DNA of 63,400 nucleotides, the filler included, from Collodictyon triciliatum (taxonomy: Eukaryota): NCBI GenBank assembly GCA_043381765.1. It is 5 parts of 5 records of this genome, joined end to end, with 100 filler letters (N's around TTAATTAATTAA, not from the genome) between each part and the next. Parts side by side here need not be neighbours in the genome. Positions count along the whole stretch, not along the records: positions 24,163 to 39,482 come from JBHJMP010000724.1; 4 more parts are not named here. One strand, written 5' to 3'. A program made the translations under genes and the position numbers. Below the pieces are notes generated by a model. It was not told the DNA's origin. It worked only from the letters and a program-made list of their open reading frames with translations, and made no database searches. This document shows, one piece after another, positions 29,800 to 30,937 of this stretch. The number at the start of each line of letters is the position of its first letter. The first letter of the stretch is position 1.

Positions 29800-30701
29800 T
29801 CAAAATGTAATCAAAAGACCCAAGGATATATCTTTATAGACGAACTTTCCGAAGAGCAGTTATCTTTATTAGACAGAAAAAAGAAAGTTGGAGTGGATGC
29901 AGACAAGTTTAATTTGGTTTACATGGTGGATGAGGCAGGTAGGAAATTACGTTACACGGCACACAAAAGAAGACATGATAGCAAATCTCTCAAAAATCAC
30001 AAAATGCTCTTGCGCGAGAAAAAAGAAAAGTACAATTCTTCAGGGATATGTATGGCAACAGATATACAAAGTGTTGTTTCTTTTGGTCACATGACTTTTG
30101 AAGAGAATCAGCAGTTTGAGACATCAAGAGTATCTTTAATCGAATTAGAGACAGGACTGAGTAAACATAATTCATGCACGGTCAATTATGAAAAAATTCG
30201 AAAATATGTATCCATGAAATCAATATACCAGATAGAATTATCCAGATTTTATGAACAAGTAACTTTTCGAAAGATGAGATGGAGACAGCATGTTAATACA
30301 AAAAGAAGTGAACAGTTGTTTATGGACCGAATCGAAAAGACATTTGGCAAGGATGTTGTACTGGCGTATGGAGACTGGAGCAGGATATGTCAGATGAAAA
30401 TATTTTTTTGGCAATAATCGGAAGATGGTTACGAAAAATACTCTCCGAACGTTTTGAAACAGTTAGTGTAGATGAATTTAGAACCTCCAAGATGTGCTGC
30501 AGCTGCGAAAAAGAACTGGAATATATGCGACTGAAAGGGAATTCAGAAGAAATGTATAGATGTCTCATATGTAAAGAGTGCAATCGCTCAGAAAGCAAAC
30601 AATCTGTATTCTTGACAAGGGACTTAAATATCGCTAATAATTTTCTCAACAAAGTTCTTTTAACCCTTCAAAATATGCATACACCTTTCTTTAAAAAATA
30701 G
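29800..30701 (+). pseudogene. Fanzor (eukaryotic TnpB-like RNA-guided nuclease, Fanzor1-type motifs), 5'-truncated and frameshifted
   Basis: Overlapping ORFs 29755-30417 and 30387-30701 give FIDELSEEQL..KVGVDADK (RuvC-I D at 29896), LRYT..RR, ETGLSKHNS, FYEQ..RKMRW, FGKDVVLAYGDWS, VDEFRTSKMCCSC (E at 30474), CKEC zinc ribbon and RDLN (RuvC-III D at 30621). The frame break lies in AAAATATTTTTTT at 30397-30409. Confidence 0.88.
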
Positions 30702-30806
30702 GCTGTCAGGTTTTTCCTGTCAGTCTTCACCACTACACGGCCTTTGTGAAAAAAGTGATGAGACCTTGGATACTAGCGCACCAAGCTTACCAATCGAAAG
30801 ATGGTA
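30701..30806 (+). ncRNA. Candidate Fanzor omega-RNA scaffold / structured right end
   Basis: Four consecutive hairpins immediately after the stop: 30701-30725, 30723-30764, 30765-30785 and TACC-A-ATC-GAAA-GAT-GGTA (30788-30806, GNRA loop). Confidence 0.5.
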
Positions 30807-30937
30807 TAATCCTTCTAGTAAGATAATATAAAGAAAAGAACAACCTGATTGAAGAAAAGAAGAAGAAAAAAGAAAAGAACAAGGGTGAAAAACAGAACTT
30901 TGAACGAGTGTTATTTTGATGCCATTAAGATTTATTT

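What the first reader, a model, noticed from the sequence alone, without database searches (positions are those of the whole stretch)
30695..30830. Hairpin array directly after the Fanzor stop: candidate omega-RNA and element end
Seen: about 105 nt fold by eye into four adjacent stems: GGCTGTCAGG/CCTGTCAGTC; GTCTTCA..CACT..CAC/GTG..AGTG..TGAGAC; CTTGG/CCAAG; and TACC-ATC-GAAA-GAT-GGTA. The sequence then becomes A-rich host-like DNA. Established: TnpB/Fanzor guide scaffolds are encoded at the element's 3' end, with the flank serving as guide. Inference: this is the scaffold, and the boundary near 30807-30830 would define the guide. The RNA could still be loaded in trans by an intact Fanzor.
Basis: partly seen in the sequence, partly recalled or inferred. 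Interest (0 to 1): 0.75.

Follow-up and report, generated by a model that had tools for sequence, protein, structure and literature searches.

The report
Guide-RNA scaffold of dead Fanzor transposon
These hairpins are the worn tail of one of over a hundred broken copies of a jumping gene, and they are likely the guide-RNA scaffold of its Fanzor DNA-cutter, because virus relatives keep the same predicted fold through matching letter swaps; it is a well-supported new example of a known system, and this copy is probably dead.

Summary
30699-30818 is the right end of an internally deleted copy (29110-30818) of a decayed Fanzor1 transposon family (98 distinct ends held). Conservation stops sharply at ...CTTCTAG|T (30818|30819). 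This copy alone folds no better than shuffles (z -1.1); the family majority does (z -6.1). A covariance model built only from viral and metagenomic Fanzor1 relatives ranks this stretch first in 20 kb (weakly, E 0.06) and hits 16 of 22 other copies at their ends; 13 of 18 stem pairs show two-sided changes. Copies decay neutrally, no intact gene was found and expression is untested, so use in trans is unsupported. The relatives are mariner-type elements with inverted ends; this family has none and its carrier is unclassified (Helitron-like 3' end, 11-14 bp duplications in 3 of 25 copies). The scan noted similar scaffold remnants elsewhere in this genome. New member of a known kind.

The parts
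29110..30818 (+). Internally deleted copy (1709 bp) of a 3.4-3.7 kb non-autonomous Fanzor1 element; both ends kept
   Evidence: copies with both ends span 3.4-3.7 kb; this one joins the 5' part to the last 1 kb
29110..29163 (+). Left end (TTT-[G/C]-CA-type start in the family, TTTGGAACCG here) followed by a (TTTG)n microsatellite
   Evidence: 25 left ends picked by eye: T at positions 1-3 in 84-96%; exact base is +/-2
29788..29797 (+). Deletion junction removing about 1.8-1.9 kb, including residues 1-335 of the Fanzor frame; short TCAAA microhomology; same junction in L008/L316
29812..30749 (+). Fanzor1 remnant (RuvC D in GVDAD, E in VDEFRTS, C4 zinc finger, RD); frameshift near 30400-30415; TAG at 30699-30701; older stop TGA at 30747-30749
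   Evidence: P0001 residues 336-532 at 64%, 511-643 at 52%; P0001 matches GtFz1, PpFz1, SpuFz1
30701..30725 (+). Stem S1 (10 pairs; one broken in this copy, T30706-T30720), overlapping the old reading frame
   Evidence: 7 of 9 aligned pairs with two-sided change
30727..30761 (+). Stem S2: outer helix 30727-34/30754-61, inner helix 30736-40/30744-48, A-rich bulge 30749-53; the part most clearly shared with viral relatives
30771..30820 (+). Predicted closing helix: TACTAG 30771-76 with CTAGTA 30815-20 (6 of 6 intact here), taking in the first one or two flank bases
   Evidence: 0.74-0.97 in family majority; aligns with TTTAC/GTAAA of relatives; three two-sided swaps
30788..30806 (+). Subterminal hairpin S4 with GAAA loop, 12 nt before the end; one base shorter than in most copies; no counterpart in sequence in the viral relatives
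   Evidence: (loop inverted in 14 of 97 copies)
30765..30785 (+).
30815..30819 (+). Right end CTAG|T
   Evidence: 58 of 98 ends exact CTAG; T follows in 95% of these
30819..30834 (+). Copy-specific flank that would be the guide (start 30819 or 30820; length inferred from other Fanzors); first 12 nt are AT-rich target preference
   Evidence: (ATAA in +1..+14 in 57% of 47 ends vs 9% background)

Best explanation
30701-30820 is the right end of a broken, internally deleted copy of a many-copy Fanzor1 transposon and is likely the decayed scaffold of its guide RNA (omega-RNA), whose guide would have been the flank from about 30819. Shown: the family, its sharp end, the broken Fanzor1 frame, and a fold that is strong in the family and covaries with distant relatives. 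Inferred: in the active ancestor a transcript running through the end was cut down to about 120 nt of scaffold (S1, S2, linker, a closing helix around S4) plus about 15 nt of flank; Fanzor1 bound it and cut the empty allele next to a motif at the insertion site, so that repair restored the element. The closing helix differs from that of mariner-type viral relatives by three compensatory swaps that fit it to this element's own CTAG|T end. The element moved with a transposase supplied from elsewhere; which one is open (HUH/Helitron-type about 0.4, unclassified duplication-forming type like MCi-2 about 0.4, other 0.2). Today the copies decay neutrally and this one is most likely inert.
For: Family and boundary. 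Fanzor1 identity. Fold: (z -6.1; 29 of 49 copies below -2 vs 0 of 49 controls). Independent homology: model R1 from 8 viral/metagenomic relatives only ranks 30696-30810 first of 18 hits in 20 kb (13 bits, E 0.059) and gives 16 hits at E<=1 in 22 other loci, all at the element end on the sense strand (best E 0.0019). Pair counts on a structure-blind alignment: 94.3% paired, 13 of 18 pairs with two-sided change, 0 of 500 shuffles, slid registers 35-56%. Closing helix kept in 97 distinct relative ends. A closing RNA stem that takes in fixed flank bases, with no pseudoknot, is what Fanzor1 RNAs show (PMC10711439 passages; PMC13565253 section 6.2); GtFz1 has four stem-loops (PMC11423790 passages).
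Against: This copy alone folds at chance level. The model hit in the window is weak (next hit 10.6 bits, E 0.22; E-values rough) and 6 of 22 loci gave none. The 11 rows are two related groups, I named the structure after seeing them, and S1 lies in coding sequence. The counts are partly forced by the motifs used to pick the strands. Among 97 copies only 24 of 3880 pair cells are compensatory against 445 broken. Four of 11 internal windows of the family majority also reach z about -2 to -2.7. No RNA was observed.
Confidence: 0.85

Rival explanations
1. The hairpins are only DNA-level signals of the transposon end (a Helitron-type terminator hairpin and subterminal inverted repeat), not an RNA scaffold.
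For: Hairpin S4 ends 12 nt before CTAG|T, the Helitron1 3' layout (PMC3627910 passages); its loop is inverted in 14 of 97 copies, as DNA hairpins are (recalled); left ends starting TTT[G/C]CAAGG match 30763-72 inverted at 8-9 of 10; one pair of copies shares 84 nt of 3' flank; the genome holds a Helitron Rep/helicase frame.
Against: S1 and S2 are kept with two-sided changes, and G-U pairs, in mariner-type relatives whose DNA ends are entirely different; as DNA the last 60 nt fold at chance level (z -1.1 to -1.6). This rival can hold for S4 in addition to the RNA role.
Confidence: 0.07
2. The scaffold is still in use: this or other truncated copies act as guide donors ('ghost' loci) for an intact Fanzor elsewhere in the genome.
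For: Several copies keep both ends around internal deletions; the closing helix is intact here; the copy lies 31 bp behind the stop of a same-strand gene, which could read through it; ghost loci work in S. punctatus (PMC10432273 passages).
Against: No selection: paired 546/6748 = 8.1%, unpaired 252/3567 = 7.1%, coding 5.6%, codon positions 5.4/5.7/5.9%. Copies are 5.9-10.4% from the majority. No unbroken frame among 150 of 526 and 68 of 1130 scored candidates; the unscored rest and unassembled DNA were not seen.
Confidence: 0.05
3. The stems are chance in a GC-richer patch of a decayed repeat.
For: z -1.1 for this copy; no Rfam match at E<=1 here.
Against: Family majority z -6.1; independent model and covariation.
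Confidence: 0.03

Closest known systems
Fanzor1 omega-RNAs of GtFz1, SpuFz1, PpFz1 (PDB 9cer, 8gkh, 9cf0; PMC11423790 and PMC10432273, passages read)
   Same: Scaffold at the right end, overlapping or following the ORF end; several stems; a closing stem next to a variable flank; P0001 matches these proteins (E 2e-28 to 4e-23). GtFz1 also has four stem-loops.
   Different: No sequence comparison with those RNAs was made; here the protein is broken and no RNA was seen; SPu-1 has inverted ends, this family has none.
Fanzor1-carrying IS630/Tc1-mariner elements of giant-virus and metagenome contigs (L131, L134 and kin; PGv-1/PUl type in PMC3627910, passages read)
   Same: Related protein (36-47% identity to P0001); same S1-S2-linker-closing helix layout with two-sided changes.
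   Different: They have inverted ends in a TTA/TAA context (69 of 98) and some a DDE_3 transposase; this family has neither, and a different 3' half (S4 and CTAG end).
MCi-2 of Mucor circinelloides (PMC3627910, section read)
   Same: Fanzor1 element without inverted ends, 11-12 bp patterned duplications, variable 5' parts, unclassified.
   Different: Here clear duplications in only 3 of 25 copies (11-14 bp); pattern T..ATAA rather than ATAATTNNNN; no Crypton fragment seen; far more copies, all seen broken.
CRe-1/2/3 Helitron2 Fanzor1 elements of Chlamydomonas (PMC3627910 passages)
   Same: Intact 3' ends with hairpin, internal deletions, variable-length duplications in part of the copies.
   Different: No 5' hairpin here, the subterminal inverted match fits only some left-end variants, and no Helitron with matching ends was found.

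Membership tests
Fanzor1 omega-RNA | Lies at the right end of an element encoding a Fanzor1 (TDG motif, RuvC D, E just before the zinc finger, RD) | tested here: met
   the family reads DAG where relatives read DPG; the frame is broken in this copy
Fanzor1 omega-RNA | Conserved scaffold ending sharply, followed by a copy-specific flank | tested here: met
   top base mostly 0.75-1.0 up to 30819, 0.68 at 30820, 0.28-0.47 from 30831 on
Fanzor1 omega-RNA | Multi-stem fold beyond chance, kept by covariation among related elements | tested here: met
   for the family; not met by this copy alone
Fanzor1 omega-RNA | Ends in an RNA stem that includes fixed flank bases, no pseudoknot | tested here: inconclusive
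Fanzor1 omega-RNA | Expressed as a discrete small RNA with about 15 nt of flank | tested here: inconclusive
   no run on record as RNA; contigs cannot show ends
Fanzor1 omega-RNA | Binds Fanzor and directs motif-dependent DNA cleavage | not testable with these tools
   needs a bench assay
Tc1/mariner (IS630) carrier | Terminal inverted repeats and TA duplication | tested here: not met
   best 11-13 of 25 in 15 left ends; no relic of the viral repeat (13-17 of 26)
Helitron1 carrier | 3' CTRR with a hairpin about 10-15 nt upstream, T next | tested here: met
Helitron1 carrier | 5' TC end | tested here: not met
   left ends start TTT
Helitron1 carrier | No target duplication | tested here: inconclusive
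   clear 11-14 bp duplications in 3 of 25, none clear in 22
Helitron2 carrier | Asymmetric inverted repeats and a 5' hairpin | tested here: inconclusive
   9, 8, 7, 6, 6 of 10 for five left-end variants; no 5' hairpin in this copy (z +0.7)
Helitron (either) carrier | An autonomous Rep/helicase element with the same ends in the genome | tested here: inconclusive
   Rep/helicase frame on G000:C6377, contig stops inside the gene, no shared end seen
MCi-2-type unclassified carrier | No inverted ends; 11-12 bp duplication with a fixed pattern | tested here: inconclusive
   no inverted ends, patterned 12-nt flank, duplication clear in only 3 of 25

The most novel reading that the evidence does not exclude
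A Fanzor1 gene and its guide-RNA core changed carrier, between mariner-type elements of giant viruses and a transposon with no inverted ends, and the RNA's closing helix was re-paired to the new CTAG|T end by three compensatory swaps. The new carrier is an undescribed class, perhaps the same as fungal MCi-2, that inserts with patterned 11-14 bp duplications, possibly with help from the Fanzor cut itself. P0001 would be a living relative on which both the RNA re-pairing and the mobility can be tested.
Probability: 0.3. Interest if true: 0.65.

Novelty: new member of a known kind. Interest (0 to 1): 0.4.

Why it matters
Guide scaffolds at Fanzor right ends are expected, so the finding itself would not surprise a specialist. 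What it adds is a covariation-backed structure for a large Fanzor1 clade (family, P0001 and about 130 viral or metagenomic ends) and a concrete case of how a scaffold's closing helix is fitted to a different transposon end, which the literature proposes in general terms (PMC10711439, PMC13565253). It also defines a scaffold and end to pair with an intact natural nuclease (P0001), and a many-copy data set for a still unclassified kind of Fanzor carrier.

Tried and rejected
Rfam, 29000-33500, E<=1: only a tRNA. RNA runs: no RNA holder listed; two runs guessed as RNA, laid as contigs, cover 29142-30845 with other copies and give no depth on the unique flanks; no evidence on expression either way. 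29788 as a Helitron TC left end: rejected, other copies run on upstream, it is a deletion junction. Universal target duplication: first test with motif-picked left ends p 0.48 on 19 pairs, four of them internal false ends; with 25 ends picked by eye p 0.0009 but only 3 clear (one right end was shifted by 3 nt by hand, so p is optimistic); this copy's TAAGCAATAA/TAAGATAATA pair is not significant (27% of mismatched pairs score as well). Flank inherited from parent copies: not supported (Mantel p 0.09; 8 pairs vs 7.3 expected). Empty paralogous sites: none among held loci. Inverted ends or relics of the viral repeat: none. DNA of P0001 or closer relatives: not found, so its RNA end is unseen. 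Direction of the carrier change: quick unrooted tree separates family plus P0001 from the viral rows (100 SH-aLRT) but gives no direction (careful search unfinished). Literature: four searches listed no description of this family or of this covariation; supplements and Repbase were not seen and may hold it.

Full report
Setting. The window comes from a 75.4 Mb, AT-rich, intron-rich eukaryote assembly in 14,576 contigs (G000). Upstream of the finding two overlapping frames (29710-30417, 30312-30701) encode the C-terminal half of a RuvC/zinc-finger protein. Its closest intact relative is P0001 (648 aa, 64% to an open stretch of another copy), which matches the solved Fanzor1 proteins GtFz1, PpFz1 and SpuFz1. 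The window holds P0001 residues 336-643 in two frames.

Observation. The four letter strings are there. Taken alone the stretch folds at chance level: z -1.14, 28 of 200 shuffles as good. Rfam has nothing here.

A large dead family. A DNA search gave 346 candidates (40 scored, 39 other copies at 84-88%) and a protein search 526 (150 scored). I hold 98 distinct right ends. In 75 of them the commonest base stays mostly at 0.75-1.0 up to 30819, is 0.68 at 30820 and 0.28-0.47 from 30831. 58 of 98 end in exact CTAG, followed by T in 95% and then A in 62%. The next 12 nt are AT-rich (ATAA in 57% of 47 ends against 9%), which behaves as target preference and not as inherited flank. Copies with both ends span 3.4-3.7 kb and start TTT[G/C]CA before a (TTTG)n tract. 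The window's copy runs 29110-30818 and lacks about 1.8-1.9 kb at a junction at 29788 that L008 shares. Copies lie 5.9-10.4% from the family majority. All three codon positions mutate alike (5.4, 5.7, 5.9%), and no unbroken frame was seen among the scored candidates (68 of 1130 scored in the latter).

The fold belongs to the family. The majority of the last 122 nt folds at -50.9 kcal/mol (z -6.1, 0 of 300 shuffles); 29 of 49 single copies (every second end) fall below z -2 against 0 of 49 coding windows; 11 internal majority windows range from -2.7 to +1.0. The fold is S1 (30701-25), S2 (30727-61, with an A-rich bulge), a linker, and a closing helix 30771-76 with 30815-20 around hairpin S4 (30788-30806). 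The stop at 30699-701 is a variant (CAG 45, TAG 20 of 80); the older frame runs through S1 to TGA 30747-49, as P0001 does.

Independent test. From 160 viral and metagenomic loci of related Fanzor1 (36-47% to P0001), 136 gave the C-terminal motif and 129 an end. Eight close ones fold as S1-S2-linker-S3-S4 with two-sided changes in 16 of 37 pairs. A model from these eight alone ranks 30696-30810 first of 18 hits in 20 kb, though weakly (13 bits, E 0.059; next 10.6 bits), and in 22 other genomic loci gives 16 hits at E<=1, all at the element end on the sense strand. On a structure-blind alignment of the window, 3 copies and 7 relatives, S1 and S2 are 94.3% paired, 13 of 18 pairs change on both sides, 0 of 500 shuffles reach this, and slid registers give 35-56%. 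The rows are related and I named the structure, so these are not probabilities. The same alignment sets ACTAG (30772-76) against the relatives' TTTAC. In 97 distinct relative ends TTTAC pairs with the terminal GTAAA (inner four pairs 96-97 of 97, outer pair 78 of 97; partly forced by the motifs used). Here ACTAG pairs with CTAGT: two pairs unchanged, three swapped on both sides. A closing stem that takes in fixed flank bases is the reported Fanzor1 pattern (PMC10711439 passages; PMC13565253 section 6.2). By this homology the guide would start at 30819 or 30820.

Is it still used? Within 97 copies paired sites change at 8.1%, unpaired at 7.1%, coding at 5.6%; 24 of 3880 pair cells are compensatory, 445 broken (part of the excess near the end may be alignment noise). 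This copy has lost a pair in S1, one in S2 and the base of S4. There is no sign of selection, and expression could not be tested.

Carrier. The relatives are mariner-type: 69 of 98 with enough upstream DNA have an inverted copy of the end in a TTA/TAA context, and L131 and L134 encode DDE_3 transposases. This family has no inverted ends. For a Helitron speak the hairpin 12 nt before CTAG|T, loop inversion in 14 of 97 copies, one 84-nt shared 3' flank and a Rep/helicase frame in the genome. Against speak the TTT start, no 5' hairpin, no partner with matching ends and clear 11-14 bp duplications in 3 of 25 copies (L049, L067, L314; paired flanks more alike than permuted, p 0.0009, ends picked by eye; an earlier automatic test gave p 0.48). 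Neutral decay alone would leave more clear duplications than 3 of 25, so either only some insertions make them, as for CRe-1/2/3, or contigs are chimeric (a 69-nt near-identical patch across the end of L058 and L116 suggests this). The nearest described cases are MCi-2 and CRe-1/2/3 (PMC3627910). An unrooted tree does not give the direction of the carrier change.

Papers seen: PMC3627910 (passages and section 12), PMC13565253 (passages and section 6.2), PMC11423790, PMC10432273, PMC10711439, PMC10288648, PMC10530073 (passages); no supplements.

Verdict. A real, probably inert omega-RNA scaffold and right end of a decayed Fanzor1 element; new member of a known kind, with better comparative support than usual and an unresolved carrier. 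Interest 0.4.

Noticed in passing
window 28927-29079 (+) and 30938-31351 (-): The element sits between two convergent genes: a last exon that looks like a WD40 repeat (label recalled, not tested) stops 31 bp before the left end, and a minus-strand frame ends 120 bp after the right end.
   Followed up: partly
window 32884-32955 (+): tRNA gene (Rfam RF00005, 46 bits).
   Followed up: no
S4 loop, 30794-30801 equivalent, in 14 of 97 copies (e.g. L050, L056, L099): The hairpin loop occurs in both orientations (CGAAAG and CTTTCG), a flip between inverted arms.
   Followed up: partly
G000:C6377 (L362:627-4208): 1194-aa open frame, partly masked, with Helitron_like_N and PIF1 domains; the contig ends inside the gene.
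   Followed up: partly
L025, L043, L050, L080, L319: A second repeat ending in GAATCGAATAAAGGA plus an A run abuts or interrupts several copies at different places; looks like a poly(A)-tailed retroelement.
   Followed up: no
L315/L077 and L058/L116: Two pairs of copies share 3' flank: 84 nt at 89% (as diverged as the element) and a 69-nt patch across the end at 67 of 69.
   Followed up: partly
5' part of full copies (L079, L330; window 29628-29634): A GTGAGT donor-like site and, further on, a long pyrimidine tract ending in CAG suggest an intron ahead of the Fanzor frame.
   Followed up: no
L131-L290: About 130 viral and metagenomic Fanzor1 ends share a conserved RNA motif with many compensatory variants of the S2 inner helix; not checked against Rfam.
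   Followed up: partly
L007:108-1031 (-): Intronless 308-aa frame with a CxxxCxxC motif next to a copy, resembling viperin-type radical SAM enzymes (label recalled).
   Followed up: no
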